In this document: positions 1,944 through 58,631 of the stretch, one piece after another
Numbering within the stretch: the first letter of the stretch is position 1
Layout of the letters: every line of letters begins with the position of its first letter
Source: Candidatus Bathyarchaeia archaeon
Lineage (GTDB): Archaea; Thermoproteota; Bathyarchaeia; Bathyarchaeales; Bathycorpusculaceae
Reading direction: 5' to 3'
Assembly: GCA_038727135.1 (NCBI GenBank)
Contig: JAVYWL010000001.1
Location: 448,001-512,000, forward strand
DNA: 64,000 nucleotides
Position numbers and translations under genes: made by a program
The notes under the pieces: generated by a model
Told to the model about the DNA's origin: nothing
Database searches by the model: none
What the model saw: the letters and a program-made list of their open reading frames with translations, nothing else

Positions 1944-2660
1944 TTGGATGCCATGGCTAAGAAACCTTCAAGGCTTCCAGAGGCTCTGGAAGTCGTTTAC
2001 AGCACAGAACGTTGGGCTTTGCTCAAGAAACTTAGGGCAAAGGCTTTGCAATTAATGGGGGTGCTTGCAAAGTTTAATATAGAAGCCATAACCCACGGCA
2101 GCATTGCGAGAGGAGATGTGACAGAGAAAAGCGATGTTGACATTTTCATACCCCATCCACCGTCATCTTTTCTAATTGAAACAGCTCTTGAACAGGCGGG
2201 AATACCGATAAACAGGCGACTCGTTGTGCAAGCAACACCCACATATGCAATGAAAGGCTACATCGAAATTGACGAAAAAACCAGTGTCTCGTTTCCATTA
2301 ATGAATATGCGAAGGATTGAAAGGGAATTTTACAAGTTCGGTGGTGAAGCGACATTTGAAGTTTTGAAATCTGGAGCGCGAGTTGCCGGCGTGGATAAAC
2401 GCCTAATGCTCATTGAGCCCACTGAGAAAGGACATAAAGAAAGCGGGATAGTTGGCCAAGAAGAACATGTTGCCAAAACGTTGAAAATTTCTGTAGAAAC
2501 AGTTCTTGATAGGGTTCACGCCCTTCTGAGAAGGAACGAGGTGGGCAGAACTGGTGTTTTTCTCCAAAAGGAGCTAGCTGAGAGCGAAACCTTCGAGTTA
2601 GCTTTGAAAAAATTGGCAGAAGAAAATCCAGCCATTCGAAGGAGACTAAAAACCCTTTAA
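1944..2660 (+). CDS. Predicted nucleotidyltransferase (Pol-beta-like, COG2413-like)
   Basis: GSIARGDV..SDVDIF motif; C-terminal VAGVDKRL and GRTGVF. Confidence 0.8.
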   Translation: MDAMAKKPSRLPEALEVVYSTERWALLKKLRAKALQLMGVLAKFNIEAITHGSIARGDVTEKSDVDIFIPHPPSSFLIETALEQAGIPINRRLVVQATPTYAMKGYIEIDEKTSVSFPLMNMRRIEREFYKFGGEATFEVLKSGARVAGVDKRLMLIEPTEKGHKESGIVGQEEHVAKTLKISVETVLDRVHALLRRNEVGRTGVFLQKELAESETFELALKKLAEENPAIRRRLKTL

Positions 2661-3745
2661 GCCAACTGCATTGGCGGTGCAAACCTTAGAAGGGCGGCCA
2701 CACCGCCTAAAGCAACGAGTTTTGCTCCAGCCTCGTGTTCTGTGCTTATAACCATGACTTTTCCGCCTTTCTGCTCCACATCCTTCATTAATCGCTCCAA
2801 GGATAAGCGCTCCTCATCCTCTGCCCCACGCAATGTTGTGTCAGCCAAAACTAGTACATCAACAGCTCCGTACTCCGAGGCCTTACGAGCTTCGTCTAAA
2901 CCGTAAACCACTGTTCGCTCGCCTTTGCCGAGCCTTTTCAGAATTTCCTCAACAACTTCGGTTTCCTCAACGATTCTCAAGTGCTTCATAGTCTTTGTTA
3001 GGACTCCTGAGCGGATAGCCTCATAAATGCCTGCGACACCACTGTTGTTTACGCTTTTCACGTCGGCGACTGATTTGGCCATTTCTGGATCTTCTTTCTC
3101 CAGAAACTTTGCAAAGTCGTTTTTTATGAAGCCTACGCCAATTATGGCGATTGGGCTGCGGGCTTCGCTCCAGATTTGGCGCAAATTGTTAAACACGTTT
3201 TGGAAGAACTCTTTGACCGCCTCGCTTCTTTTTTCAGCCTCAAGTTTTCCCGGAAGCCTTGTATGTTCCTCCACTTTTACTTCAACGCCATACTGAGTCG
3301 TTGTGGCTATTGCGAAGCCTTCATCATCTATCGCCACAATTATTATGGGCTTTTCCGAAGTTTTCTTGGCTATCTCCAATCTTTCAAGCTGGTGACTCGC
3401 CCACTCCTCCTTTACGATAGTTACTGGCGAATTCAAAGTAATATTCAACGTGTGATGTGCACCTGTCGGGATTATTTCTGGTGCATGGCATATTGTTCCA
3501 TGAACCCTAAGTCTTCCAAGGAGCTTGTCCCAAGCAACCTTTTCCACTTTAACGCCCATGAAAACTGAAATCCTTTCGCCCCGCCTCCCCCTAGAATATT
3601 TCTCGTCCTGTTTTATCTCTCGTGACGTGTAGGCGTAAACCTCGTCGCCCACATAGATAATGTTGTAGAGATGCCACAGATCGTCAAAAGTTTCTGGGAT
3701 AACCTTTACAAAGCCCTTTTTTAAGTTCATCTCCAGAATCTTCAA
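2657..3745 (-). CDS. pelA: mRNA surveillance protein Pelota
   Basis: DDLWHLYNII, GAHHTL, LGGVAALLRF eRF1-like C-terminus; no GGQ. Confidence 0.95.
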   Translation of the reverse strand: MKILEMNLKKGFVKVIPETFDDLWHLYNIIYVGDEVYAYTSREIKQDEKYSRGRRGERISVFMGVKVEKVAWDKLLGRLRVHGTICHAPEIIPTGAHHTLNITLNSPVTIVKEEWASHQLERLEIAKKTSEKPIIIVAIDDEGFAIATTTQYGVEVKVEEHTRLPGKLEAEKRSEAVKEFFQNVFNNLRQIWSEARSPIAIIGVGFIKNDFAKFLEKEDPEMAKSVADVKSVNNSGVAGIYEAIRSGVLTKTMKHLRIVEETEVVEEILKRLGKGERTVVYGLDEARKASEYGAVDVLVLADTTLRGAEDEERLSLERLMKDVEQKGGKVMVISTEHEAGAKLVALGGVAALLRFAPPMQLA

Positions 3746-4378: not shown

Positions 4379-4420
4379 TTCTTCTTAACATTTAAAAAAA
4401 AGGCTTTTGACGCGTAAATT

Positions 4421-4451
4421 TTTTATATCCTTGGATGGATAATCCATCCAA
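4421..4451 (+). promoter_or_regulatory. TATA box followed by a perfect 21-bp palindrome (candidate repressor operator)
   Basis: TTTTATAT at 4421-4428, then TTGGATGGAT-A-ATCCATCCAA at 4431-4451, just upstream of the GGAG SD of the 4469 gene. Confidence 0.7.
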
Positions 4452-4468
4452 CAAAAGGAGAAATTGAC

Positions 4469-5929
4469 TTGAGAGAAAAAATACTTGTATTACTTGCAAT
4501 TGTCTGTTTTTGCACAATGGTGTATTGTCCTCAAGTAAAAATATGCGCCGCACAAGGCCTCGATTTCAAACTAGTGGATGTACTACTCGATTATGGAAAT
4601 GGAACACGCGTGTGGGCCTCATGCATACTGCAATCCGGTGCCTACACCGTATACAATGCAACACGGCTGGTCGCATCATCTTTAAATGTCACATGGTATG
4701 ATGGTTTAGCCTTTGTGGAAGCCATAGATGGTGTTTGGAATAGTTATCCCTACTTTTGGATTTGGTGGTATTGGAACAGTTCTGAATTCCGGTGGGTTAT
4801 GGGACCGGTGGCATGTAACCAGTATGTCCTTGAAGACTGCGACATAGTGGCATGGTACTATGAAGACTGTATCGGTTGGCCTCCTAGCCCTCCACCAGAT
4901 CCTCCCGTGACAAAAGTTGATGTTTTACTGGATTACGGAAATGGAACCATAACTTGGTATGAAAATTTAGAAGTGCTTGGCTTCGCTTCGGTTTTGAAAG
5001 CTACAAAGGCCGTTGCCACTGTGGAATATTCTTTGTGGGGCACCGACGTCTTTGTTGACGCCATAAACAATGTCTGGAACGACTACATCTCATTCGTCTA
5101 CTTCTGGATTTACTGGTACTGGAACCACTCGGCCAAGTGCTGGGAGGCAGGAGCTGTTGCATGCAACAAGCACCTGCTTTCTAGTGGGGACATCATAGCA
5201 TGGTACTATGAAGACTGCACCACGTGGCCGTTGGCACCGCCAACTCTAACACCGCATCCTAAAGCCAGCTTCACATGGGCGCCCGATATTCCCAAGGTTG
5301 GCCAAACTGTAACCTTTGACGCTTCAGCCTCAAAGCCTAACGGAGGCACTATAATTGACTATGCATGGAATTTTGGAGATGGAAGCGTAGCCCATGGCAA
5401 AATTGTTGCCCATACTTACAATAGTCCAGGAACATATATTGTAACGCTAAATGTCACAGACAGCAGCGGCCTATGGGACGTTGAACAGAAACAGATAATG
5501 GTAGTTCAGCCTTACGGCCCTAAAGCGAACTTTGAGGCTTTCCCAGAAACCGCAAAGGTTGGAGAAAAAATAAAGTTTGATGCTTCAGCTTCCCTCTCGG
5601 GATGGAATGGAACACACACGATGCCGATAACAGAGTACCGTTGGAACTTCGGCGACGGAAACATAACAGTCACAAACCAGCCAATAATATACCATAGCTA
5701 TAGCGCGGCGGGAAACTATTACGTAACATTGACTGTTTACGCACCCGGCGCAACCCCAGATACAGATTCTGCAACGGTGAAAGTAACAGTGTTCGCGGTG
5801 CCTGTTGGAGGCCAATCGGTTTCCGTGAAAACACCTGCCGCAGAAAAAGGCCTAGCGGTCTATCTGGTTTTGGTGGCGCTTATTACTGCCACTTTTGCAG
5901 TTTTAAAGCGCAAGTCCATAAGAAGATGA
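4469..5929 (+). CDS. Cell-surface protein: signal peptide, two DUF4430/transcobalamin-beta-like domains, two PKD domains, C-terminal anchor
   Basis: Tandem repeats VDVLLDYGNGT..FV(E/D)AI..FWI.WYW..VACN..AWYYEDC; two WNFGDG PKD motifs; PVGG + TM + KRK tail. Confidence 0.75.
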   Translation: MREKILVLLAIVCFCTMVYCPQVKICAAQGLDFKLVDVLLDYGNGTRVWASCILQSGAYTVYNATRLVASSLNVTWYDGLAFVEAIDGVWNSYPYFWIWWYWNSSEFRWVMGPVACNQYVLEDCDIVAWYYEDCIGWPPSPPPDPPVTKVDVLLDYGNGTITWYENLEVLGFASVLKATKAVATVEYSLWGTDVFVDAINNVWNDYISFVYFWIYWYWNHSAKCWEAGAVACNKHLLSSGDIIAWYYEDCTTWPLAPPTLTPHPKASFTWAPDIPKVGQTVTFDASASKPNGGTIIDYAWNFGDGSVAHGKIVAHTYNSPGTYIVTLNVTDSSGLWDVEQKQIMVVQPYGPKANFEAFPETAKVGEKIKFDASASLSGWNGTHTMPITEYRWNFGDGNITVTNQPIIYHSYSAAGNYYVTLTVYAPGATPDTDSATVKVTVFAVPVGGQSVSVKTPAAEKGLAVYLVLVALITATFAVLKRKSIRR

Positions 5930-7722
5930 TGCCTATGAAAAAGTCTGGAAACACCCATTACATGGTGGTCCTCGGCTTCCTACTCCTGTTACTGCTTTTC
6001 TCCCTTCTATTTCTTGTTGGAAAGAATAACGGGGCAACATCCGACGTTGGAGGAGAAACTTCACGAGAGAGTGATGCTGAGGATCATGTCTCCGTTTCTG
6101 AAACAACACCATTTAGTGGGGAAAACCCCCTGTCTAAAGCCTTAAACTATTTGAAAAACATTCAACAATCTGATGGCAAAATATCGGATTTCGCAACCTC
6201 ATGTTGGGCGGTTATGGCGATTGCCGCCGCTGGCGAAGACCCCCACAGCTGGAAGGGATCAAGCGGAAAATCCATAGTTGACTACCTAATCGAGAACAGA
6301 GGCCAAGTTAATTTGAACGTTCCCACGGATGTTGCACGGTTTATTTTGGCAATGACCGCCGCTGGAGAGAATCCAAGAAACATAGGCGGCACAAATTATG
6401 TTGAAATTCTTAAAGGCTTCTTTTCCAATGGTCAGATTGGAAGCGAATCGCAATTAAATGACGACTTTTGGGCTATTATGGCGCTGGTTTCAGCTGGCGA
6501 GGCTGCAAACTCAACAATTATTCAAGGGTCAGTTAACTTTATTAAAGCACATCAGAATGCTGATGGTGGTTGGAGTTGGGCTGTTGGCGAGACAAGCGAC
6601 GTGGACGACACTGCTGCAGCGATTATGGCTTTGGTTTCCGCTAGCGAAGACAGTTCAACGAGCAACATTGCAAACGCACTTCAGTATTTAAAAGGCCAAC
6701 AACAACCTAATGGCGGATTTCCATGTTTTGGCGTTATAAACAGCGCTTCCGATTCTTGGGCTATAGGCGCCATATGCAGCGCTGGGCAAAACCCAAGAGA
6801 CTGGAAAGTGAACAACATAAGCGTGATCGACCACCTCTTAAGTCTCCAAAATGCTGATGGCTCGTTCAATTGGACGTCAAGCACTCCAGCCAACAAGGCG
6901 CTTATGACGTCCTATGCCATCGTCGCTCTATGTTCGAGACAGTATCCAACCAACGGCTTACCCGTCTACGTTAGAATTGAAGGAAAGCAAATAACCATTT
7001 GGCGGCGCAAAGTTTTCGTGGCGGCATCCATAATCGTCGACGACGCCGGACAAACACACTATCTGCCAAAGCCAACGGTGCTTGGAGCCTTAGACAAGGC
7101 GTCTGAAATCGGCGGATTCGCTTATAAAGTTAGACAAACAGCCTACGGCTTATACGTCTACTTGATAGCTGGAGAGGAAGCCACTGGACTATCCGGGTGG
7201 ATGTACCGTGTAGACTATTACATGCCTAATGTTGGCATGGCTGATTTTGAATGGAATGTTACATCGCCTCCAAACCCGCCCCACAAGGAACTGCTAATTT
7301 ATTATGGTGATTGGACCAGTATGCCGCTGAAAATTTGGGTGAACAAGACTGAAGTACATCTTGGAGAAAACATAACGGTGCTTGTGATATACTACAATGA
7401 CACAAGCGGTGGTTGGCATCCCCTCCAAGGAGCAGCGGTTCACTTCCTAAACAGAAGATACACAACCAATGCAACAGGCTATGTGACCATTACCGTGAGG
7501 TACGACCCGCCCGTCTGGGCTGAAAAGGAAGGTTTCATACGAAGTGACATAATCGAAGTTAAGATAATCAACAATCCAATAAGCTCTAACACAGCAAGTA
7601 ATCAACAAAATTCTGAAAATACAACTCAAAAGAACGAAATAAACTCCTCCCTTTCTTTCGGATTTCTTGAGAGGCAGCTAGCTTGGCTAACATTTCAGTT
7701 TTGTGAAATAATAATCCGCTGA
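5926..7722 (+). CDS. Membrane-anchored protein: prenyltransferase/squalene-cyclase-like repeat barrel + DUF4430-like domain + Ig-like domain
   Basis: N-terminal TM; QxxDGG(W/F)-type repeats (QQSDG, QNADGGW, QQPNGGF, QNADGSF); GLYVYLIAG..SGWMYRV beta-domain motif. Confidence 0.75.
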   Translation: MMPMKKSGNTHYMVVLGFLLLLLLFSLLFLVGKNNGATSDVGGETSRESDAEDHVSVSETTPFSGENPLSKALNYLKNIQQSDGKISDFATSCWAVMAIAAAGEDPHSWKGSSGKSIVDYLIENRGQVNLNVPTDVARFILAMTAAGENPRNIGGTNYVEILKGFFSNGQIGSESQLNDDFWAIMALVSAGEAANSTIIQGSVNFIKAHQNADGGWSWAVGETSDVDDTAAAIMALVSASEDSSTSNIANALQYLKGQQQPNGGFPCFGVINSASDSWAIGAICSAGQNPRDWKVNNISVIDHLLSLQNADGSFNWTSSTPANKALMTSYAIVALCSRQYPTNGLPVYVRIEGKQITIWRRKVFVAASIIVDDAGQTHYLPKPTVLGALDKASEIGGFAYKVRQTAYGLYVYLIAGEEATGLSGWMYRVDYYMPNVGMADFEWNVTSPPNPPHKELLIYYGDWTSMPLKIWVNKTEVHLGENITVLVIYYNDTSGGWHPLQGAAVHFLNRRYTTNATGYVTITVRYDPPVWAEKEGFIRSDIIEVKIINNPISSNTASNQQNSENTTQKNEINSSLSFGFLERQLAWLTFQFCEIIIR

Positions 7723-7746
7723 ATCTAACATGAACTGGTGGGCTGA

Positions 7747-8304
7747 ATGGATTGCAGACGTGTTGCAATGTTGACAATACTAACGGCATTATGCGTTGCG
7801 CTTCAGATAACCCCAAGGCCACCTAACGTTGAGGCCACATCCCTCATCTCCTTTTTGGTTGGATTCTTGTTCGGCGCAAGCTTCGGAGCTATTTTAGGAG
7901 CCTTAACAATGTTTATTAACGGATTTCTTTCGCCATGGGGTCTTGCCGGGATAATAATGCCCTTCCAAATGGTTGGGATGGCCCTAATAGGGCTCGCTGG
8001 AGGAGTTTACCGCAAAGTTTTAGGTGGAAATCCCAAAGAGGTAGTCAATACCACAAAAATTTTAAAATTGGAAGTTTCATTCCTTGCGGCTTTCCTCACC
8101 CTCATATATGATATACTGACGAATATTGGCTGGGCTCTGCCTTCAGAAACACCAATTATTGCCGCATTAATCCAAGGCGTATGGTACAGCGTAATCCACG
8201 TAGTGTCAAATGCCGTGTTTTTCGGAGGAGCATTTTTTATTCTGGTTAGGATTATAGGCAATCTGCTAGGTGAAAATCTATGGATATCACAAAAAGAAGC
8301 TTAG
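7747..8304 (+). CDS. ECF transporter S component (CbrT-like, probably cobalamin)
   Basis: ~185 aa, hydrophobic; PNVEATS loop and HVVSN near C-terminus as in CbrT-type S components; DUF4430 context. Confidence 0.72.
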   Translation: MDCRRVAMLTILTALCVALQITPRPPNVEATSLISFLVGFLFGASFGAILGALTMFINGFLSPWGLAGIIMPFQMVGMALIGLAGGVYRKVLGGNPKEVVNTTKILKLEVSFLAAFLTLIYDILTNIGWALPSETPIIAALIQGVWYSVIHVVSNAVFFGGAFFILVRIIGNLLGENLWISQKEA

Positions 8305-8744
8305 TGATATTTGGCTTAGGATGGCTAACCTCCCTCGTGCTTATAGGCTGTATTGCCGGATACTATTACGTAGAATACCAAAACTTGCTCAAAAGATTTG
8401 AAGAGTACAAGCGCCAGCCCTTGTTTATGCGCGTCAATATATGCATTAATTACGCTGAGTGGAACGGAACCTCAGTTTGGTATAATAACACGTTTGTACC
8501 TTTAGGGTGCAGCCTTTTAAATGCAACCCAGATGGTTGCAGTTGTAAGCTTCACTTATTGGGAATCGTATGATGCAAGTTTTGTAGACGCTATAAACAAC
8601 ATCGCAAACAGCGGAGGTAGGTACTGGATGTGGTACCGTTGGACAGGTAGCCGTTGGGAATACGGGCATGTCGGTGCAGATAAATATGTTTTATCCCCTG
8701 AAGAGACGGTGATGTGGCGATACGAGACTCCACATTACCCATGA
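8280..8744 (+). CDS. Membrane-anchored single DUF4430/transcobalamin-beta-like domain protein
   Basis: N-terminal TM; FVDAINN..YWMWY..VGADKYVL..MWRY. Confidence 0.75.
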   Translation: MDITKRSLVIFGLGWLTSLVLIGCIAGYYYVEYQNLLKRFEEYKRQPLFMRVNICINYAEWNGTSVWYNNTFVPLGCSLLNATQMVAVVSFTYWESYDASFVDAINNIANSGGRYWMWYRWTGSRWEYGHVGADKYVLSPEETVMWRYETPHYP

Positions 8745-8757
8745 GGAGACAATGCTT

Positions 8758-10023
8758 CTACTCTTGCATTTTAAAGCGTAGAATGGCTGCTATTCCACCG
8801 AATGAATTTTTCAGCATCTGTCCCTCTTCAGTTTCTTCAGAGATTATTTCGACGTCTGTGTTTGTGTATTCGGCCAGTTGGGCGAAGTTTTCTATCAACT
8901 CCTGCTTTTCAACAATGCTTAATGATGGGGCTTTACATTTTGGGCATGGTTTCCCAACGAGGCTTTGCTCGAAACTTGTTAGCATGGGGCTTTTAACTGT
9001 ATGCTGCTCCTCATAACCGCATGCGCTGCACTTGACTTTCACACGCGCGATATCGAGACCTTCTGAAAGCAGCAAGGTCTTAACTGCGCCAGCTTCTAAG
9101 GCTTTTCTAACGGCTTCTTCCCCATAAGTGGCAAAACCAGTATCGTGACCAATTTCGTATAGGAACTGCTGCATTATTTGCCTCTCTTCTATGTAACGGA
9201 TTTTCCTCATAATCTCTGGCGCCTTGTCCACTATTTCCTTTACCCCTTGTTCGTCAACGTAAGCCGTGTCAACAGTGTCAATGATTTTCTCCTTCAGCTG
9301 GTAATTTAGGTAGTCGCCTTTCTCGAAGTCGTATTTAGTTGGTCCGGGCCCACCAATAATTATACCCTTCAAATTCTCTATGGGAAGGAAAACTTCGTTT
9401 GCATGTTCGCCTACACGCCTAAAATATTCTTGGAGGCGCATTTCCCTAAGTCTTTCAAACCTTCTGGCAGATTGCCCTCCAGCACGTGTCTTCCCCGGAA
9501 CACCAGAGGTCACTTCCCTAACTATTTCAAGTCTTCTACCTTGAAGAGTTGCAAGAGTCGCGGCTGTCGCGTCTATGAGGAGTATGCCATACGTCTCCTT
9601 TTCCCTTAAAAGCTCTTGCAAATGCTCTGTATGGAAACGAGAGTCGCATCTGTAAAGATATATATTTATGGGCTCCGGCGGTATAATCACATATGTCTCA
9701 ATTTTTTCGCTTCCGGCGCCATTTTGGGGAACCGCCCCACAAAATATTACAAGCCCGTTTTCTGGGGTTTCTTTGAAAAGTTTTAGGCGCTGCTGAACCT
9801 TTATAATGGCGTCTTGGACATTTTTGCGGGTTGTTGTGGATTTTATGTTCGAAGCGGTGCCGTATTCCTCTCTAAGCATGTTCATGACTTCGCTTATCTG
9901 CTTCCCTGGTGGAATGTAAAGCGAAATGAGCTCTGTTCCTCGTCCCTCTTTATTGGCTAGCGTGTTCAGTATCTTTTTTAACCGGAAGAGTTCGAGGGAC
10001 GTCCTTTTTTTAGGGGTGCTCAA
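8758..10023 (-). CDS. prf1: Peptide chain release factor aRF1 (likely TTG start at 10023)
   Basis: NIKS, YRCD and GGQS motifs; C-terminal CxxC..CxxC zinc minidomain. Confidence 0.96.
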   Translation of the reverse strand: MSTPKKRTSLELFRLKKILNTLANKEGRGTELISLYIPPGKQISEVMNMLREEYGTASNIKSTTTRKNVQDAIIKVQQRLKLFKETPENGLVIFCGAVPQNGAGSEKIETYVIIPPEPINIYLYRCDSRFHTEHLQELLREKETYGILLIDATAATLATLQGRRLEIVREVTSGVPGKTRAGGQSARRFERLREMRLQEYFRRVGEHANEVFLPIENLKGIIIGGPGPTKYDFEKGDYLNYQLKEKIIDTVDTAYVDEQGVKEIVDKAPEIMRKIRYIEERQIMQQFLYEIGHDTGFATYGEEAVRKALEAGAVKTLLLSEGLDIARVKVKCSACGYEEQHTVKSPMLTSFEQSLVGKPCPKCKAPSLSIVEKQELIENFAQLAEYTNTDVEIISEETEEGQMLKNSFGGIAAILRFKMQE

Positions 10024-10097
10024 ATTTTTCACACAAAGTTTAATGCCTATAAGGCTACATGGCAACGGGTCAAATAAAAATATTGGACAAATAAAGG

Positions 10098-11078
10098 TTA
10101 GGACAAGCCTAAAACTTCTCTCAGAAAAGCCTTATATGGTCCAAGTTTTCCGCCGTAGTTGCCAGCGGAGATTCGCAGAACGCCGGGAACATTTATGGCT
10201 GCTTTTATGCCTTCACCCATAGCCTTCTTGACAGCCTCAACTGTCAAGCCGTTAATGACTATTTCATAGACGGCGTTGACATCTTCTGGCAGCTGAGAGT
10301 CTTCCACAACTTTCTTCAGTGTTGGACAGAAGGGATGGTTTGTTGAAGCCTTAAGCTTATATTTTAAGGAGCCAGCCTTAGAGCCAGATCGACAAACTCC
10401 ACCTGGAAAAGGCATTATAACTCCGCTTGCGCCATTTTTTATTGCCTTTACGGCCCCTTCTGCGGCTTGCAGTCCCGAGTTTTTGTCCTTTGCCAGTATG
10501 AGAAAGTTTCCACCGGCTACAGCCTCCACAACACCAAAAGAGTCTTCTACTATGAATTCACCTTCCATAACTGGGATTCTCCAAACCTTCCTGCCACCAA
10601 TGATGCCTTTCTTTTGGAAGCCATCGCCAAAATAGCGGAGACTACGCCCGACTTTAACCCTTCTTTTCGCTTCTGGCAAAGCGTCGAAAGCCGCCGTTGT
10701 CGGGCAAGTCATTATGCACTGTCCAATACGTAAAACCATCTGATTCTTCAGGTCGAAACGGTTCCGGTTGTAGATTTGGATTAAAACACCTACTCGTCCA
10801 TCCGGAGTTTTTTCTTTGGGAACGATTCCTTCAACTCCAGCCTCAGCGGGAGCCATAATGACACTTGTGGCAAAACCAGTTGCCACTTCAGCGGCGGTTA
10901 AAGCCCATTTTTCGCTGTCCGCCGTAATAAGCATTCTTCCAGCCCACAAAGGAAACATCTCGGCGAAAGTATCGGCAATTTTTACAATGTATCCGGCTGA
11001 AGATTTCACTATGAAGCATGGTCCAAACTTATCTTTCTCGTCGTAACCAGCCACTTCGATTTTTGTCATACTTTGCAT
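10098..11078 (-). CDS. ftr: Formylmethanofuran--tetrahydromethanopterin N-formyltransferase
   Basis: DTFAEMF, TPDGR, RIGQC..CPTT, GGNF, PFPGG.CRSGSK, SAGNYGGKLG. Confidence 0.95.
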   Translation of the reverse strand: MQSMTKIEVAGYDEKDKFGPCFIVKSSAGYIVKIADTFAEMFPLWAGRMLITADSEKWALTAAEVATGFATSVIMAPAEAGVEGIVPKEKTPDGRVGVLIQIYNRNRFDLKNQMVLRIGQCIMTCPTTAAFDALPEAKRRVKVGRSLRYFGDGFQKKGIIGGRKVWRIPVMEGEFIVEDSFGVVEAVAGGNFLILAKDKNSGLQAAEGAVKAIKNGASGVIMPFPGGVCRSGSKAGSLKYKLKASTNHPFCPTLKKVVEDSQLPEDVNAVYEIVINGLTVEAVKKAMGEGIKAAINVPGVLRISAGNYGGKLGPYKAFLREVLGLS

Positions 11079-11168
11079 TGTTTCAGCCCAGCCTTGTGGA
11101 TATTTTAAAATTTAATTTTAAGGCTTTTCACTTTCATGAACAGTTTTAACATGTTAATATCGATTTCC

Positions 11169-12134
11169 TTAGGGAAGCCAATGTGGCTCTGATGAAGTTT
11201 TGCCTTTTACGCTCTCCAGCTTTTTGGTAACAGCTTCTTTGGCTATTTGGTAGGCGATCTTATAGTCAAAGATGCCCTTCGGCTCTTCTGCAGCCATCTT
11301 AATCATTTTGGCTTCTATCACACTTTTTAGGACTCCTATAGCAAGGGCGCCTATGCCAAAAACGTTTGGAATTATTTCTTTCATATCCCATGTAGGTTTT
11401 AAGCCTTCAACACCTAAAGGTGGAATAGCGTTAATGTCAGCTACAATTTTGCAGTTCTTTCCATACTCCTTAAGCGTATTCAATGGTAGAAGCTGAATGC
11501 CAGCAGCCCCAGCCGCCAGAACTATCTCGGCATCTTTTATAGCCGCCCCAATTTCTTCTGGAGTTTTGGCTTCAACCCCTTTTGCTCTTTCCTCTTTAAA
11601 TTCTTCGTTTATTTTTTCCGCCACCGCTGTAGACCTCTTGAGGTCTCTTGACGTGACGATAACTTTCGCCTTCTCAGAAGCATAAAGCCTTGCGGCGGTT
11701 TGCCCCACTGGCCCGGTTCCAGCCAAGACTGTTACTTTTTTTCCTTCAAGGCTTCCGAAGCCCTTAACCATAGAGGCTTCAAGGGTTTTTGCAACAGCGG
11801 CTGAAGCTGTTGTGTAGGCGCCCCTTGGGTCTATTACTACGCTGAGTTCGAAAGGCGGAAACATGCACTTCTTTATTCTCTCTAAAATCTCGTTTGTCAG
11901 CTCAAAGTTGCGTCCGTTAATGAAAATCTTGGTGTGTTTTGTGCCTTCGGGACCACGAGGGAACATGGCGTCATAGACAAGTCTTTCAGCATCTTCCACC
12001 GTGACATTTTCATATTTTAAAATAGCGGCTTCCGGTAGAACATCTATTGTTGCCAAAATATCAAATGGACTCGCGTGCTTATCAGTGTCTAGAAAAATGA
12101 AAACTGTTTTGAACTGTTTTGCCAAAGCCTTCAA
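11169..12134 (-). CDS. NAD(P)-dependent methylene-tetrahydromethanopterin dehydrogenase (MtdA/MtdB family)
   Basis: DTDKHASPFD, PPFELSV..DPRGAYTTA, VLAGTGPVG, ADINAIPPLG, GALAIG.LK, all matching methylotroph MtdA/B. Confidence 0.88.
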   Translation of the reverse strand: MKALAKQFKTVFIFLDTDKHASPFDILATIDVLPEAAILKYENVTVEDAERLVYDAMFPRGPEGTKHTKIFINGRNFELTNEILERIKKCMFPPFELSVVIDPRGAYTTASAAVAKTLEASMVKGFGSLEGKKVTVLAGTGPVGQTAARLYASEKAKVIVTSRDLKRSTAVAEKINEEFKEERAKGVEAKTPEEIGAAIKDAEIVLAAGAAGIQLLPLNTLKEYGKNCKIVADINAIPPLGVEGLKPTWDMKEIIPNVFGIGALAIGVLKSVIEAKMIKMAAEEPKGIFDYKIAYQIAKEAVTKKLESVKGKTSSEPHWLP

Positions 12135-12501: not shown

Positions 12502-13755
12502 TTGGCTCTTCCGTTTCTGCAAAGTGGAGCAAGCTTGCCGTTGACAATCACAAAAATACGGAACTTCTTGGTTATAGGCATAGACACAACTTTTATTGCC
12601 GCTTCTGCAAAAAGCGCCGGATACAACGTTTACGCCGTTGACTATTTCGACGACGTTGACCTACAATGGACTTGCGACGATTACGAGTCCGCAATAAAGC
12701 ATCGCAAAAGCGAAGGTGACGGAGATAAGAGCGCCTTTTTTAACCCACAAGTTCTCTTTAAACTGGCAAAAAATTTTGTGAAAAAGCATAATATAGATGC
12801 AATTTTGCTCTCCTCAGGTCTTGACGACCAGTTCGACATCCTTTACGAGCTGAATCGCATAGCCCCAATATTGGGGAATTCGCCCAACGTTATTAGAAAA
12901 GTTCGCGAAAAGCAGAGATTCTTTAAAGAACTCAAGGCGCTAGGCATTCCCCATCCTGAAACAGTCGTTGTTAAAAGCTTTTTGAAAGCGAAGGAAGCCG
13001 CCGCCAAGATTGGGTACCCTATCGTCATTAAACCAACCAGTGGCTTTGGAGGAATAGGAATAAAAGTTGCATCGAATTTTTCAGAACTATCGGAAGCTTT
13101 GTCATCAGCGTTTAAAACGGCTGGCAGAGTTGTCGTCCAAAAACTGATTAGAGGCTTTCATGCAAGCATATCCCTTTTGGCTAATAAAAAAGAGGTTAAG
13201 ATTTTGTCCATAAATGAGCAACTGTTAGGGTTGCCATCGGTTTTTCAAGAGGAGCCTTTTGGCTATTGCGGTAATATCGTGCCTCTTCAAACAACCGAGT
13301 CACTTTTAGCAAAATGTCAATTTATAGCTGAAAAAATCGCCTTGCACTTTGGTCTTATAGGTTCGAATGGCATTGACATTGTCATTTCAGAAGATGGAAC
13401 ACCTTATGTGATAGAGGTGAATCCGCGGTTTCAGGGAACTTTGGGCTGCATGGAGAGAGTTTTAGGAATAAATCTCGTCGATGCCCATGTCAAAGCTTGC
13501 CTACATAATGAACTGCCAACAGTAAAGCCGCCCTTAAATTTTTGCACACGCCTCGTCTTGTATGCTCCTAAGCGCGCCGTGGTTCCAGACCTTACAACAA
13601 TAAAAGAGGCGCGGAATATTCCTCCTCCTCAAAGCAAAATTGAAAAGGGAGAACCTTTATGCTCAGTTTTGGCTGAAGGGGAAAGCCGAGAAACATCCTT
13701 GCAAAAGGCCAGCGACCTAGCCAAGGCGATTTACAGTAAGTTACAGCCACTTTAA
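12502..13755 (+). CDS. ATP-grasp protein (COG2232-like, type associated with H4MPT/methanofuran clusters); start uncertain
   Basis: VDYFDDVD, KPTSGFGG, GSNGID, IEVNPRFQG. Confidence 0.85.
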   Translation: MALPFLQSGASLPLTITKIRNFLVIGIDTTFIAASAKSAGYNVYAVDYFDDVDLQWTCDDYESAIKHRKSEGDGDKSAFFNPQVLFKLAKNFVKKHNIDAILLSSGLDDQFDILYELNRIAPILGNSPNVIRKVREKQRFFKELKALGIPHPETVVVKSFLKAKEAAAKIGYPIVIKPTSGFGGIGIKVASNFSELSEALSSAFKTAGRVVVQKLIRGFHASISLLANKKEVKILSINEQLLGLPSVFQEEPFGYCGNIVPLQTTESLLAKCQFIAEKIALHFGLIGSNGIDIVISEDGTPYVIEVNPRFQGTLGCMERVLGINLVDAHVKACLHNELPTVKPPLNFCTRLVLYAPKRAVVPDLTTIKEARNIPPPQSKIEKGEPLCSVLAEGESRETSLQKASDLAKAIYSKLQPL

Positions 13756-14477
13756 ACGGGTAATTTCAATTTACGTGTGGCATTAATTATTGATGGACCT
13801 ACTATGGATGTTATAACAGCGGACAAACCCACTTTTATTGGAGTTTCAACAGCCCCCAGCGCCCATATGGCTTGAAGCCCTCTGACTTCGATGCCGTAAA
13901 ATAAATTATAGGTTTGGCATGGCACAAAAATGAAGATGCGGAAGAGAACATCAGCCTCTAAGCCGATAAACACGCTTAAGGCGAGAATATAAATTAAACG
14001 TTTTTTGGAGTAGGTATCCCACAAACTTTTCCATTTTGACGTAACAACTGCCAAAAAGATTAAAGTGGCAAAGGCTAGGTAGACGTCCCACATCCCCCAA
14101 AATGGAAGTTGCCAAGAAACTGGCGCCGCGAAAAAGCCTCCCAAAAGGGCTAGGTAATATGTTAAAACTATGCCCCATCTTTTCCTAAAAGCAAATGCTG
14201 AAATCATAGCTCCAAGGGGAGCCCCAAGGGTGAAAAGAAACTCGTATACATCAATGTAATTTATGAAGTGCCCAATCATGACTCCGATGATGGTTGAAAG
14301 GAAGCCGGCCCATGGCCCAAGCAATATTCCAGTTATCGACTCAGATATGAAAATCCAGCTTAACCAGACTCCAGAATAGGGTAAAATTGGTGGAACGGCC
14401 AGTGAGTCGCAAATTATATTGAAGGCGGCGCATACAGAAATCAACGCGATGAAAGTTGACTTTTCAAGCTTTCCCAA
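13752..14477 (-). CDS. Membrane protein, ECF S-component-like, substrate unknown
   Basis: 6-7 TM; GILLGPWAGFLSTIIG pattern typical of S components. Confidence 0.55.
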   Translation of the reverse strand: MGKLEKSTFIALISVCAAFNIICDSLAVPPILPYSGVWLSWIFISESITGILLGPWAGFLSTIIGVMIGHFINYIDVYEFLFTLGAPLGAMISAFAFRKRWGIVLTYYLALLGGFFAAPVSWQLPFWGMWDVYLAFATLIFLAVVTSKWKSLWDTYSKKRLIYILALSVFIGLEADVLFRIFIFVPCQTYNLFYGIEVRGLQAIWALGAVETPIKVGLSAVITSIVGPSIINATRKLKLPV

Positions 14478-58507: not shown

Positions 58508-58631
58508 TGGCGCCGGGGAGGGGATTCGAACCCCTGCGAGCCCGAAGGCCCACTGGCTCCCTTGTCAAAGCCCCATTCTGAACGGCGGGCAGATCTCGAG
58601 GCCAGCGCGTTAACCACTCCGCCACCCCGGC
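58508..58631 (-). tRNA. tRNA-Ser(CGA) with a 36-nt canonical 37/38 intron (58559-58594), CCA encoded
   Basis: GCCGGGG/CCCCGGC acceptor, CTGGC/GCCAG anticodon stem, long variable arm. Confidence 0.92.

What the first reader, a model, noticed from the sequence alone, without database searches (positions are those of the whole stretch)
4469..8744. Candidate archaeal transcobalamin-like B12 capture system feeding an ECF S component
Seen: four co-directional, tightly packed genes carrying four copies of one beta-domain in three surface-anchored formats (2x + PKD stalk; alpha-barrel + 1x; TM + 1x), around an S-component gene. Known: DUF4430 resembles the C-terminal beta-domain of animal transcobalamin/intrinsic factor, whose N-terminal half is an alpha6/alpha6 barrel of the prenyltransferase/squalene-cyclase fold; CbrT is a cobalamin S component. 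Inference: the 598-aa protein is a two-domain transcobalamin-like binder rather than a cyclase, and the operon is a corrinoid-scavenging relay. No ECF ATPase/T genes are adjacent, so it would use a shared (group II) module.
Basis: partly seen in the sequence, partly recalled or inferred. Interest (0 to 1): 0.85.

Follow-up and report, generated by a model that had tools for sequence, protein, structure and literature searches.

The report
Archaeal vitamin B12 capture-and-import operon
A hot-spring archaeon that seems unable to make vitamin B12 carries four genes for surface proteins resembling the human B12 carrier transcobalamin beside a B12-type importer subunit; this design was predicted years ago for bacteria, so it is a new archaeal example, not a new system.

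Summary
Window 4469-8744 (+) carries four overlapping or nearly abutting genes. They encode a secreted, C-anchored protein with two SLBB/DUF4430 beta-domains and two PKD domains; an N-anchored alpha/alpha-toroid + beta-domain + beta-sandwich protein; a 185-aa ECF S component; and a single-pass-anchored beta-domain. The host is a Bathyarchaeia archaeon.

The corrinoid reading is supported by independent but indirect lines:
- The S family matches only CbrT among solved structures.
- Both folded proteins hit transcobalamin, intrinsic factor and haptocorrin first.
- Bacterial homologues sit behind B12 riboswitches in 5 of 58 loci.
- The operon's promoter palindrome heads BtuF-, BtuC-, CobD- and CobN-type genes in sister genomes.
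- The genome has B12 enzymes and adenosyltransferases but no CbiB, CobS, CbiC or BtuC match, and one distant EcfAA'T module.

Two points count against the transcobalamin analogy. By sequence and rigid fit the toroid is nearer squalene-hopene cyclase than transcobalamin. A closed ligand cleft was not reproduced.

The kind was predicted in 2007-2009, and this scan has met it eight times in bacteria. This is an archaeal, group-II member. In the literature searches run here I found no binding test of such surface proteins.

The parts
4420..4428 (+). TATA-like box (TTTTTATAT) of the operon promoter
   Evidence: Read from the sequence. An A/T-rich box sits at the same place in 16 aligned transcription-unit heads (A5). 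No transcript data are available.
4431..4451 (.). Perfect 21-bp palindrome TTGGATGGATAATCCATCCAA, a candidate operator of an archaeal cobamide regulon
   Evidence: Read from the sequence. The 17-nt core is unique in the genome even at 3 mismatches. It is conserved at the head of all 16 units in 13 related loci plus the window. It occurs in 88 of 201 class genomes; the reversed control occurs in 2. Elsewhere it lies next to BtuF-, FecCD-, CobD- and CobN-type genes.
4469..5929 (+). Gene 1, 486 aa: signal-like N-terminus, two SLBB/DUF4430 beta-domains (aa 33-138 and 148-254), two PKD domains (best stretch aa 264-341), C-terminal hydrophobic anchor with basic tail
   Evidence: The start is TTG, preceded by GGAG at 4457-4460.
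5926..7722 (+). Gene 2, 598 aa: anchor helix aa 10-30, disordered linker, alpha/alpha toroid aa 68-335, beta-grasp aa 345-461, beta-sandwich aa 466-550, disordered tail
   Evidence: AlphaFold2 model with pLDDT 84.5 and pTM 0.79. Foldseek result. VIA-align result. Pfam and NCBIfam scans.
7747..8304 (+). Gene 3, 185 aa: CbrT-like ECF S component
8280..8744 (+). Gene 4, 154 aa: long N-terminal helix (membrane anchor plus stalk) and one SLBB/DUF4430 beta-domain (aa 48-154). It is the counterpart of the small DUF4430 'additional component' next to cbrT in Lactobacillales.
   Evidence: It follows the S gene directly in 13 of 13 related Bathyarchaeial loci that have room for it. A complex model with gene 3 was obtained.

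Best explanation
The operon encodes the substrate-side half of an ECF-type cobamide (vitamin B12 family) importer, plus cell-surface capture proteins.

Shown:
- The four genes and their domain make-up.
- Their likeness to CbrT and to the two domains of transcobalamin.
- The conserved gene order.
- The regulatory links of relatives to B12.
- A single distant EcfAA'T module.

Inferred mechanism:
1. The surface-anchored toroid + beta protein (gene 2) and the tandem-beta protein on a PKD stalk (gene 1) bind free corrinoids outside the cell.
2. The membrane-tethered beta-domain (gene 4) docks by its transmembrane helix on the CbrT-like S component (gene 3) and holds a binding domain over the entry site.
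3. The loaded S component then uses the shared EcfAA'T motor to bring the corrinoid in.
4. Inside, CobA-type adenosyltransferases and corrinoid proteins use it (methylmalonyl-CoA mutase, MttB/MttC-type methyltransferases).
5. Expression is probably set by a protein that binds the promoter palindrome, where bacteria would use a B12 riboswitch.
For: (1) S component. A profile of 24 family members hits only 6fnp_A (ECF-CbrT) in the PDB, at E 9.5e-9, aligning 3-176 to 9-179. No other S component appears at E<=10. The single sequence gives E 0.0055. 6FNP is ECF-CbrT, which transports cobalamin and cobinamide (PMC5997447 passages).

(2) Gene 4 fold. The model has pLDDT 89.6. The top 17 Foldseek hits are all transcobalamin, haptocorrin or intrinsic-factor beta domains. 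Next comes a bacterial DUF4430 structure, then a drop to E>0.02.

(3) Gene 2 fold. The top 15 Foldseek hits are transcobalamin, haptocorrin and intrinsic factor, over 440-460 columns.

(4) Neighbourhood. Among loci with at least 5.5 kb downstream, 11 of 12 archaeal loci have a beta-domain gene and 10 of 12 an S gene. Of 31 bacterial loci, 28 have a beta-domain gene and 23 have EcfT and EcfA.

(5) Riboswitches. In 58 bacterial loci, 5 carry a cobalamin-clan riboswitch directly upstream on the same strand: L062, L042, L051, L050 and L080. These were the only such hits in about 730 kb scanned. L062 also holds a CobA/BtuR adenosyltransferase (E 6e-56) inside the operon. The S genes of L051 and L042 hit only 6fnp_A, at E 8e-11 and 1e-11.

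(6) Operator. The palindrome heads this operon and its relatives. In other Bathyarchaeia it lies next to 27 scanned neighbour proteins:
- 15 BtuF-like binding proteins
- 2 FecCD permeases
- 3 CobD-type aminotransferases
- 2 CobN halves
- 5 others

(7) Genome, 94.7% complete. There is no match to CbiB, CobS, CbiC or FecCD. There are three B12-binding domains, in two MttC-like proteins beside three MttB genes and in methylmalonyl-CoA mutase with MeaB. There are two CobA-type adenosyltransferases.

(8) Other S components. The riboflavin-type S component is a different gene (E 3e-29).

(9) Complex of gene 3 with gene 4. The model supports binding but does not show it. The score is 0.70 and the best of 3 controls is 0.00. 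That mark was reached by 58 of 80 solved complexes and 2 of 110 mismatched pairs; these counts hold only roughly because my own alignments were used. Runs agree in at least 96% of contacts, and partner pLDDT is at least 82. The interface is helix 6-31 of gene 4 against S residues 91-92, 105-119 and 141-152.
Against: - No binding or transport datum exists for any of these proteins.
- All three DUF4430 hits by hmmscan are below Pfam's cut-off: 22.7, 19.2 and 19.1 bits against 23.8.
- There is no hit to the eukaryotic Cobalamin_bind family at E<=0.1.
- Foldseek's two-domain alignments have rmsd of about 24 A. The closed sandwich of holo-transcobalamin is therefore not reproduced.
- The toroid keeps S224-D-V-D-D-T-A230, a class II cyclase-like motif that is invariant or nearly so in 30 relatives.
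- 53 of 58 bacterial loci have no riboswitch at gathering score.
- A homologous Lactobacillus sakei system was assigned to heme (bioRxiv 10.1101/864751, passages).
- BtuF- and FecCD-type genes beside the palindrome could in principle serve iron chelates.
- Absence of biosynthesis genes in a 94.7%-complete genome is not proof.
- Burroughs et al. cautioned that archaea with these proteins often make B12 themselves.
Confidence: 0.78

Rival explanations
1. The system captures and imports heme or another iron tetrapyrrole, as proposed for the homologous Lsa1836-1840 system of Lactobacillus sakei.
For: The L. sakei preprint (10.1101/864751, passages read) links an ECF system with transcobalamin alpha- and beta-like subunits to heme uptake. 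Its evidence is mutants and docking. Several binding proteins next to the palindrome score for heme-type IsdE as well as BtuF; L125 gives IsdE E 1e-21 against BtuF 3e-12.
Against: - Five bacterial homologue operons are under B12 riboswitches, and one contains a corrinoid adenosyltransferase.
- The palindrome also heads CobD-type and CobN genes.
- The S family matches CbrT only.
- The genome lacks a B12 pathway but needs B12.
- No heme-related gene was seen in the operon or its relatives.
Confidence: 0.07
2. The system imports incomplete corrinoids (cobinamide, cobyric acid) or another cobalt or nickel tetrapyrrole rather than finished cobamides. This follows the suggestion by Burroughs et al. 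for archaea of 'a distinct metabolite'.
For: ECF-CbrT carries cobinamide as well as cobalamin (PMC5997447 passages). Burroughs et al. raise a different metabolite for archaea. Haptocorrin-type binders accept many corrinoids; that point is recalled, and the only support seen here is a title in a reference list.
Against: The genome shows no CbiB and no CobS, so it could not finish cobinamide. It does have adenosyltransferases and B12 enzymes that need a complete cofactor. CobU/CobY, CobT and CbiZ were not searched.
Confidence: 0.1
3. Gene 2 is a surface enzyme or glycan/isoprenoid binder of the cyclase/prenyltransferase superfamily. The S component imports an unrelated vitamin, and the gene linkage reflects cell-envelope function only.
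For: - The best sequence and rigid-structure matches of the toroid are squalene-hopene cyclase and drimenyl diphosphate synthase.
- The DVDDTA motif and the QxxxGGW-type repeats are conserved.
- NCBIfam's best hit is the SCO2321 membrane protein family (E 1e-19, below cut-off).
Against: - There is only one toroid, whereas class II cyclases have two, with the active site between them (the cyclase architecture is recalled).
- Cyclase equivalog scores are far below their cut-offs: 41 against 322.7 and 39.6 against 431.1.
- The protein is predicted to lie outside the cell.
- The fusion to a transcobalamin-type beta domain and the linkage to ECF genes are conserved across both domains of life.
- The B12 riboswitches lie directly before the gene-2 homologue itself.
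Confidence: 0.03

Closest known systems
ECF-CbrT of Lactobacillus delbrueckii with the nrdJ-cbrS-cbrT-pduO cluster (PDB 6FNP; Santos et al. 2018, PMC5997447; prediction by Rodionov et al. 2009, not held)
   Same: The S component is of the same family. It uses a shared EcfAA'T module and lies in a B12-auxotroph context. A small DUF4430 protein is encoded next to the S gene. [quoted passage not shown]
   Different: This system is archaeal. The small partner is anchored by a transmembrane helix, not a lipid. Two further large surface proteins are present, a toroid + beta fusion and a tandem beta + PKD protein. There is no nrdJ or pduO in the cluster. Identity to CbrT is low. That cbrS itself is the DUF4430 gene is my inference, not stated in the passages read.
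Prokaryotic transcobalamin-like SLBB proteins with alpha/alpha toroids in CbiO/CbiQ operons (Burroughs, Balaji, Iyer, Aravind 2007, PMC1796856)
   Same: The domain set is the same: SLBB fused to a toroid, Ig-type domains in archaeal members, and a second paralogous SLBB protein in the operon. The linkage to ECF genes and the predicted B12 or precursor scavenging are also the same.
   Different: In the family studied here the close Bathyarchaeial members have lost the dedicated EcfT/EcfA genes. This host appears to be a B12 auxotroph, which removes the paper's reservation about archaea. The paper's additional files, which may list related archaeal loci, could not be seen.
Lsa1836-1840 of Lactobacillus sakei (bioRxiv 10.1101/864751)
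   Same: It is an ECF transporter with separate transcobalamin alpha-like and beta-like surface subunits.
   Different: The alpha and beta parts are split into two proteins there and fused here. The substrate claimed there is heme. It has a dedicated ECF module.
Animal transcobalamin, intrinsic factor and haptocorrin
   Same: An N-terminal alpha6/alpha6 toroid is followed by a C-terminal beta-grasp domain. These are the top Foldseek matches for gene 2 and gene 4.
   Different: Identity is 13-17%. There is no Pfam Cobalamin_bind hit. The toroid keeps cyclase/prenyltransferase-type repeats. The inter-domain linker is short. A beta-sandwich domain and a membrane anchor are extra. The closed ligand sandwich is not reproduced in the model.
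Squalene-hopene cyclase and other class II terpene cyclases; protein prenyltransferase beta subunits
   Same: These give the best rigid fit and the best sequence hits for the toroid. A DxDDTA-like motif is present.
   Different: There is a single toroid, it is extracytoplasmic, and it is fused to an SLBB domain. It lies far below the family cut-offs.
BtuG/BtuH surface B12-binding lipoproteins of Bacteroides (only a search listing was seen; otherwise recalled)
   Same: The logic is the same: surface-exposed high-affinity capture proteins feeding a membrane importer.
   Different: The folds are unrelated, and the importer there is an outer-membrane TonB-dependent transporter.

Membership tests
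ECF transporter S component, CbrT family | Small polytopic S-component protein recognised by ECF S-component profiles | tested here: met
   PF07155 scores 29.5 bits against a cut-off of 26.7. PF12822 gives E 1.9e-5, below its cut-off. All 24 aligned relatives match PF12822 and 22 match PF07155 at E<=0.01.
ECF transporter S component, CbrT family | Sequence relationship to CbrT rather than to other S-component families | tested here: met
   The profile hits 6fnp_A only, at E 9.5e-9 over the full length. No other solved S component appears at E<=10. The genome's RibU-like S component is a separate gene. Unsolved S families were not compared.
ECF transporter S component, CbrT family | An EcfA-EcfA'-EcfT energising module is available | tested here: met
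   There is one CbiQ/EcfT match in the genome (E 3e-34), preceded by two ABC ATPase genes, on the same contig about 250 kb away.
ECF transporter S component, CbrT family | Transports cobalamin or cobinamide | not testable with these tools
   This needs a transport or complementation assay.
SLBB / DUF4430 (transcobalamin-like beta domain) | Match to Pfam PF14478 at its curated cut-off | tested here: inconclusive
   hmmscan gives 22.7, 19.2 and 19.1 bits against a cut-off of 23.8. The six-frame search gives 22.1 bits, or 24.4 'with its neighbours', for gene 4. More distant relatives in the same family pass, for example the L062 protein at 42.1 bits.
SLBB / DUF4430 (transcobalamin-like beta domain) | Beta-grasp fold of the transcobalamin type | tested here: met
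   For gene 4 the top 17 Foldseek hits are transcobalamin, haptocorrin or intrinsic-factor beta domains. 5np4 gives TMt 0.77 and rmsd 2.3 A over 109 columns. Next is 3u7z (DUF4430), then a gap to E>0.02. Genes 1 and 2 are assigned by homology or alignment only.
SLBB / DUF4430 (transcobalamin-like beta domain) | Secreted or surface-anchored | tested here: met
   Hydrophobic N-terminal segments occur in all three proteins, and gene 1 has a C-terminal anchor. No dedicated signal-peptide predictor was run.
Transcobalamin / intrinsic factor / haptocorrin (Pfam Cobalamin_bind) | Toroid followed by beta domain in one chain | tested here: met
   The model shows the toroid at 68-335 and the beta-grasp at 345-461. 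Foldseek aligns both domains.
Transcobalamin / intrinsic factor / haptocorrin (Pfam Cobalamin_bind) | Sequence membership in the eukaryotic family | tested here: not met
   Gene 2 gives no Cobalamin_bind hit at E<=0.1. phmmer to full transcobalamin gives E 0.52, in the beta domain only.
Transcobalamin / intrinsic factor / haptocorrin (Pfam Cobalamin_bind) | The two domains close over one corrinoid | tested here: inconclusive
   In the ligand-free model, rmsd to holo structures is about 24 A over both domains. The rigid alignment to intrinsic factor covers 66-345 only. Model coordinates could not be inspected.
Class II terpene cyclase (squalene-hopene cyclase type) | Score at family cut-offs | tested here: not met
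   TIGR01787 scores 41.1 against 322.7, and TIGR01507 scores 39.6 against 431.1.
Class II terpene cyclase (squalene-hopene cyclase type) | Two toroid domains with the active site between them (feature recalled) | tested here: not met
   There is one toroid of about 270 residues, and the rest is beta structure.
Class II terpene cyclase (squalene-hopene cyclase type) | DxDD acid motif | tested here: inconclusive
   DVDD at 225-228 is conserved in 30 relatives. Whether it is equivalent to the catalytic motif was not established, because phmmer aligns 198-265 to a different repeat of the cyclase.
Group II ECF system (S component sharing a module) | S gene not linked to EcfA/EcfT genes, with several S components per module | tested here: met
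   There are four S-like matches in the genome, two of them weak, and a single EcfT.

The most novel reading that the evidence does not exclude
ECF transporters are defined as working without outside binding proteins. Here the S component may work as an obligate complex with a membrane-tethered transcobalamin-type domain, fed by two further surface binders. That would make it an ECF importer with its own extracellular capture layer. The whole unit belongs to a protein-operated B12 regulon, marked by the palindrome and perhaps read by the wHTH-DUF4443 protein. This regulon would do in archaea what the B12 riboswitch does in bacteria.
Probability: 0.4. Interest if true: 0.7.

Novelty: new member of a known kind. 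Interest (0 to 1): 0.45.

Why it matters
How archaea acquire and sense vitamin B12 is poorly known. Bathyarchaeia are abundant in sediments and hot springs, and many lack the pathway (PMC7110647 passages).

This locus gives a compact, testable set:
- three soluble domains to assay for cobamide binding;
- a predicted S-component/tethered-binder pair;
- a sharply defined operator shared with BtuF-, CobD- and CobN-type genes.

If binding is shown, it would give the first biochemical support for a 2007 prediction about the prokaryotic relatives of transcobalamin. It would also show that ECF importers can have extracellular capture subunits.

As a genome feature it is not new. The same design has been described in print and has been met repeatedly in this scan.

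Tried and rejected
- Rfam at gathering score on the whole window found only three tRNAs and no riboswitch. The same holds for the 4 archaeal loci scanned.
- Pairwise BLAST of the gene 4 domain against the gene 2 beta domain found nothing.
- The look-up of sequencing runs listed no RNA holder. Holders are hot-spring metagenomes in 7 studies, and two runs labelled metatranscriptomic are marked 'probably DNA'.
- The first tree run (mixture model) did not finish. It was repeated with FastTree. That tree is unrooted, so no donor can be named.
- A search for a conserved regulator gene next to the cluster in 16 Bathyarchaeial loci found only syntenic housekeeping genes and a CBS-pair protein.
- Co-occurrence of DUF4443 with the palindrome is uninformative, because DUF4443 is in 169 of 201 genomes.
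- There is no palindrome before the DUF4443 gene of this genome.
- A 'TGGAT..ATCCA' short-core scan gave 17 sites of no clear meaning.
- The literature searches turned up no binding study of a prokaryotic DUF4430 or toroid protein with B12. This covers only the library searched.
- The search of earlier findings by place and by protein sequence returned nothing.

Full report
OBSERVATION

Four ORFs lie on the + strand at 4469-5929, 5926-7722, 7747-8304 and 8280-8744. The junctions are a 4-nt overlap, a 24-nt gap and a 25-nt overlap. A tRNA-Ala gene ends 90 nt upstream, and a convergent aRF1 gene starts 14 nt downstream, so this is a self-contained unit.

- Gene 1 (486 aa) has a hydrophobic N-terminus and two strong PKD domains (E 6e-37). 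It has a weak DUF4430 hit and a C-terminal hydrophobic stretch followed by KRKSIRR.
- Gene 2 (598 aa) has prenyltransferase/squalene-cyclase repeat hits (E 5e-10 to 2e-10) and a weak DUF4430 hit at 385-440.
- Gene 3 (185 aa) is an ECF S component: PF07155 scores 29.5 bits against a cut-off of 26.7.
- Gene 4 (154 aa) has an N-terminal helix and a DUF4430 hit at 22.7 bits, just under the 23.8 cut-off.

A six-frame DUF4430 search of the whole genome finds four matches, all in this operon. The two copies in gene 1 are 51% identical (E 3e-32). Copy 2 and gene 4 are 38% identical (E 3e-17). The copy in gene 2 has no pairwise likeness to them and is connected by profile and fold only.

So 'four copies of one domain' is right at superfamily level. 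Three of the copies are recent paralogues.

ORGANISM AND GENOME

Close homologues are named Bathyarchaeia/Bathyarchaeota by their sources. The assembly has 1.55 Mb in 7 contigs and is 94.7% complete. Near-identical DNA occurs in hot-spring metagenomes of 7 studies.

FOLDS

Gene 2 was modelled with a 30-sequence alignment and gave pLDDT 84.5 and pTM 0.79. Its parts are:
- an anchor helix at 10-30;
- a disordered linker;
- an alpha/alpha toroid at 68-335;
- a beta-grasp at 345-461;
- a further beta-sandwich at 466-550;
- a disordered tail.

Foldseek against the PDB ranks transcobalamin, haptocorrin and intrinsic factor in places 1-15. E-values run from 6e-12 to 1e-9 over 440-460 columns, so both domains align in the same order. 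However, rmsd is about 24 A and target TM-scores are 0.42-0.47.

The toroid keeps S224-DVDDTA, invariant or nearly so among 30 relatives. I could not establish whether this corresponds to the catalytic DxDD of cyclases.

Gene 4 was modelled with 22 sequences and gave pLDDT 89.6. Its Foldseek list is clean. All 17 top hits are beta domains of transcobalamin, haptocorrin or intrinsic factor. The isolated human beta domain 5np4 gives TM 0.77 and 2.3 A over 109 columns. Next is the bacterial DUF4430 structure 3u7z, then ubiquitin-like folds at E>0.02.

S COMPONENT

The single sequence finds 6fnp_A at E 0.0055. A profile of 24 relatives finds it at E 9.5e-9 across the whole length, and finds no other S component at E<=10. 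6FNP is ECF-CbrT of Lactobacillus delbrueckii, shown to carry cobalamin and cobinamide (PMC5997447, passages).

The genome has a separate, strong riboflavin-type S component and a generic one. It has a single EcfA-EcfA'-EcfT set about 250 kb away.

NEIGHBOURHOOD SURVEY

I scanned 80 loci encoding relatives of gene 2, 22 archaeal and 58 bacterial. I used profiles of my own for the toroid protein, the beta domain, the S family and this genome's EcfA and EcfT.

- Close Bathyarchaeial relatives repeat the window's order: a protein with two or three beta domains, the toroid protein, S, then an anchored beta domain. They have no EcfA or EcfT.
- In 13 of 13 such loci with room, the anchored beta gene follows the S gene directly, even where the order of the other genes differs (L011, L057, L058).
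- Most Chloroflexota/Dehalococcoidia and two Myxococcota-labelled loci, plus four archaeal loci, have a different order: toroid protein, a beta-domain protein of about 320 aa, EcfT, fused EcfAA', then an S component of about 240 aa.

Counts among loci with at least 5.5 kb downstream:

| Loci | n | Beta gene | S | EcfT | EcfA |
|---|---|---|---|---|---|
| Archaeal | 12 | 11 | 10 | 1 | not reported |
| Bacterial | 31 | 28 | 19 | 23 | 23 |

One locus (L060) had no toroid ORF by my criteria and is left out of these counts.

A FastTree of 68 toroid proteins puts a 13-row Bathyarchaeial clade next to a 32-row Chloroflexota clade. Archaea are not one group. The tree is unrooted, so no direction of transfer can be given.

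REGULATORY EVIDENCE, BACTERIA

I scanned all 58 bacterial loci and 4 archaeal ones, about 730 kb, against Rfam at gathering score. The only riboswitches found were five of the cobalamin clan. Each lies on the coding strand just upstream of the gene-2 homologue:

| Locus | Rfam family | Bits |
|---|---|---|
| L062 | AdoCbl | 74.6 |
| L051 | Cobalamin | 52.1 |
| L080 | AdoCbl-II | 37.3 |
| L042 | Cobalamin | 32.7 |
| L050 | Cobalamin | 32.5 |

The last three are close to their thresholds. The other 53 bacterial loci have none.

In L062 the operon also contains a CobA/BtuR corrinoid adenosyltransferase (E 6e-56) and a DUF4430 protein above the Pfam cut-off. The S components of the L051 and L042 operons hit only 6fnp_A, at E 8e-11 and 1e-11.

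REGULATORY EVIDENCE, ARCHAEA

A perfect palindrome, TTGGATGGATAATCCATCCAA (4431-4451), lies between a TATA-like box (4420-4428) and the ribosome-binding site (GGAG, 4457-4460).

- Its 17-nt core is unique in the genome even at three mismatches.
- The same element, with symmetric variants, heads all 16 transcription units of the cluster in 13 related loci and the window. There are two copies where the cluster is split in two.
- In 201 genomes of the class, 88 carry it at one mismatch or fewer, mostly once. The reversed control occurs in 2.

I scanned 27 different proteins encoded next to it in other genomes:
- 15 are BtuF-like class III binding proteins.
- 2 are FecCD permeases.
- 3 are CobD-type aminotransferases. 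Two reach the NCBIfam cut-off for threonine-phosphate decarboxylase CobD and also the cut-off for HisC.
- 2 are halves of a CobN cobaltochelatase.
- 2 are ApgM-like.
- 3 are others.

Nine further sites lie next to toroid, beta or S genes.

Notes e1-1886270 and e1-5396415 point to a winged-helix/DUF4443 protein as its reader. I checked only the following:
- This genome has one such protein, of 209 aa.
- The family is in 169 of 201 class genomes, so co-occurrence says nothing.
- In 8 genomes its gene lies within 3 kb of a palindrome.

The position next to the TATA box suggests a DNA operator. The symmetric substitutions would also fit a hairpin. No transcript data are available.

PHYSIOLOGY

The genome gives no match to CbiB, CobS, CbiC or FecCD/BtuC. 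It does have:
- two MttC-like corrinoid proteins beside three MttB-family methyltransferases;
- methylmalonyl-CoA mutase with its B12 subunit and MeaB;
- two CobA-type adenosyltransferases, one in the mutase cluster, and no PduO type.

It therefore looks like a user that must import finished cobamides, and it has no other recognisable B12 importer. Absence in a 94.7%-complete assembly is not proof. CobU/CobY, CobT and CbiZ were not searched.

HOW IT LIKELY WORKS

Genes 1 and 2 would be surface binders. Gene 1 carries two beta domains held away from the membrane on PKD domains. Gene 2 is a full toroid + beta binder.

Gene 4 would sit on the S component. A complex prediction with family alignments supports binding but does not show it:
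- The score is 0.70 and the best of 3 controls is 0.00.
- That mark was reached by 58 of 80 solved complexes and 2 of 110 mismatched pairs. These counts hold only roughly here because my own alignments were used.
- Runs agree in at least 96% of contacts, and partner pLDDT is at least 82.
- The contact is between the gene 4 helix (6-31) and S residues 91-92, 105-119 and 141-152.

In the PDB sequence searches run here, the only S-component entry found was 6FNP itself, and I know of no solved complex of an S component with such a partner. Hand-over between binders, and from gene 4 to the S component, is inference.

WHAT IS KNOWN

Burroughs et al. 2007 (PMC1796856; abstract and passages of sections 5-7 read) defined the SLBB superfamily. 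They described bacterial and archaeal transcobalamin-like members fused to toroids or Ig domains, paralogous pairs in one operon and linkage to CbiO/CbiQ. They predicted scavenging of B12 or precursors, with a reservation for archaea that make B12.

Rodionov et al. 2009 predicted CbrT. That paper is not held and is cited as reported in PMC5997447.

A preprint on L. sakei assigns a homologous system to heme.

This scan has reported the bacterial versions eight times. In my searches I found no binding study of a prokaryotic member. Supplementary files, which may list further loci, were closed.

VERDICT

The feature is real and correctly read, and it is a new archaeal, group-II member of a known, predicted but biochemically untested kind.

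Noticed in passing
window 4431-4451 (and L002-L011, L043, L053, L057, L058, L073; L087-L132): A 21-bp palindrome abuts the TATA box of the operon. It is unique in this genome. It is conserved at every unit of the cluster in relatives, and is present in 88 of 201 class genomes. There it sits next to BtuF-, FecCD-, CobD- and CobN-type genes. It is probably the operator of an archaeal cobamide regulon.
   Followed up: partly
L086 1486-2115 (-) = contig 1 about 603.2-603.8 kb: A 209-aa protein with an N-terminal CggR/PH0730-type DNA-binding domain and DUF4443. It is a candidate reader of the palindrome according to earlier scan notes. The family is near-universal in the class (169 of 201). In 8 genomes its gene lies within 3 kb of a palindrome.
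   Followed up: partly
window 5926-7722, residues 224-230: An SDVDDTA motif, like the acid motif of class II terpene cyclases, is conserved in all 30 aligned relatives of an apparently non-enzymatic surface toroid. Together with D179/D180 it may form an acidic ring at the toroid mouth.
   Followed up: no
L047, L048, L050, L056, L062, L071 (Patescibacteria and unclassified bacteria): In these small-genome bacteria the toroid gene is followed by a secreted Ig-like protein of about 190 aa and a 144-aa DUF4430 protein. No S or Ecf gene was detected by my profiles. L062 and L050 carry B12 riboswitches, and L062 has a CobA gene inside the operon.
   Followed up: partly
L012-L079 and the tree: Toroid proteins of Bathyarchaeia and Chloroflexota/Dehalococcoidia are about 50% identical and form neighbouring clades. 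This suggests transfer between the domains. The basal Bathyarchaeial member (L013) still has a dedicated EcfT/EcfAA'.
   Followed up: partly
window 13752-14477 (-): A 241-aa ORF gives a weak ECF S-component match in the six-frame search (E 2.5e-4) but no Pfam hit at 0.01 when scanned as a protein.
   Followed up: no
window 2657-3745 (-) and 8758-10065 (-): Two eRF1-family genes flank the operon. The downstream one has all three domains strongly. The upstream one has a weak middle domain, so it is probably a Pelota-like paralogue.
   Followed up: no
window 10098-12134 (-); L084: These are tetrahydromethanopterin-pathway genes: formyltransferase Ftr, an Mtd-like dehydrogenase and, elsewhere in the genome, Mch.
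   Followed up: no
window 58511-58631 (-): A tRNA match spans 121 nt, which suggests an intron-containing tRNA gene, as is usual in archaea.
   Followed up: no
L119 5692-9451 (-) (genome G098): A CobN cobaltochelatase is read as two adjacent ORFs of 739 and 533 aa behind a palindrome. It is either a split gene or a frameshift in the assembly.
   Followed up: no
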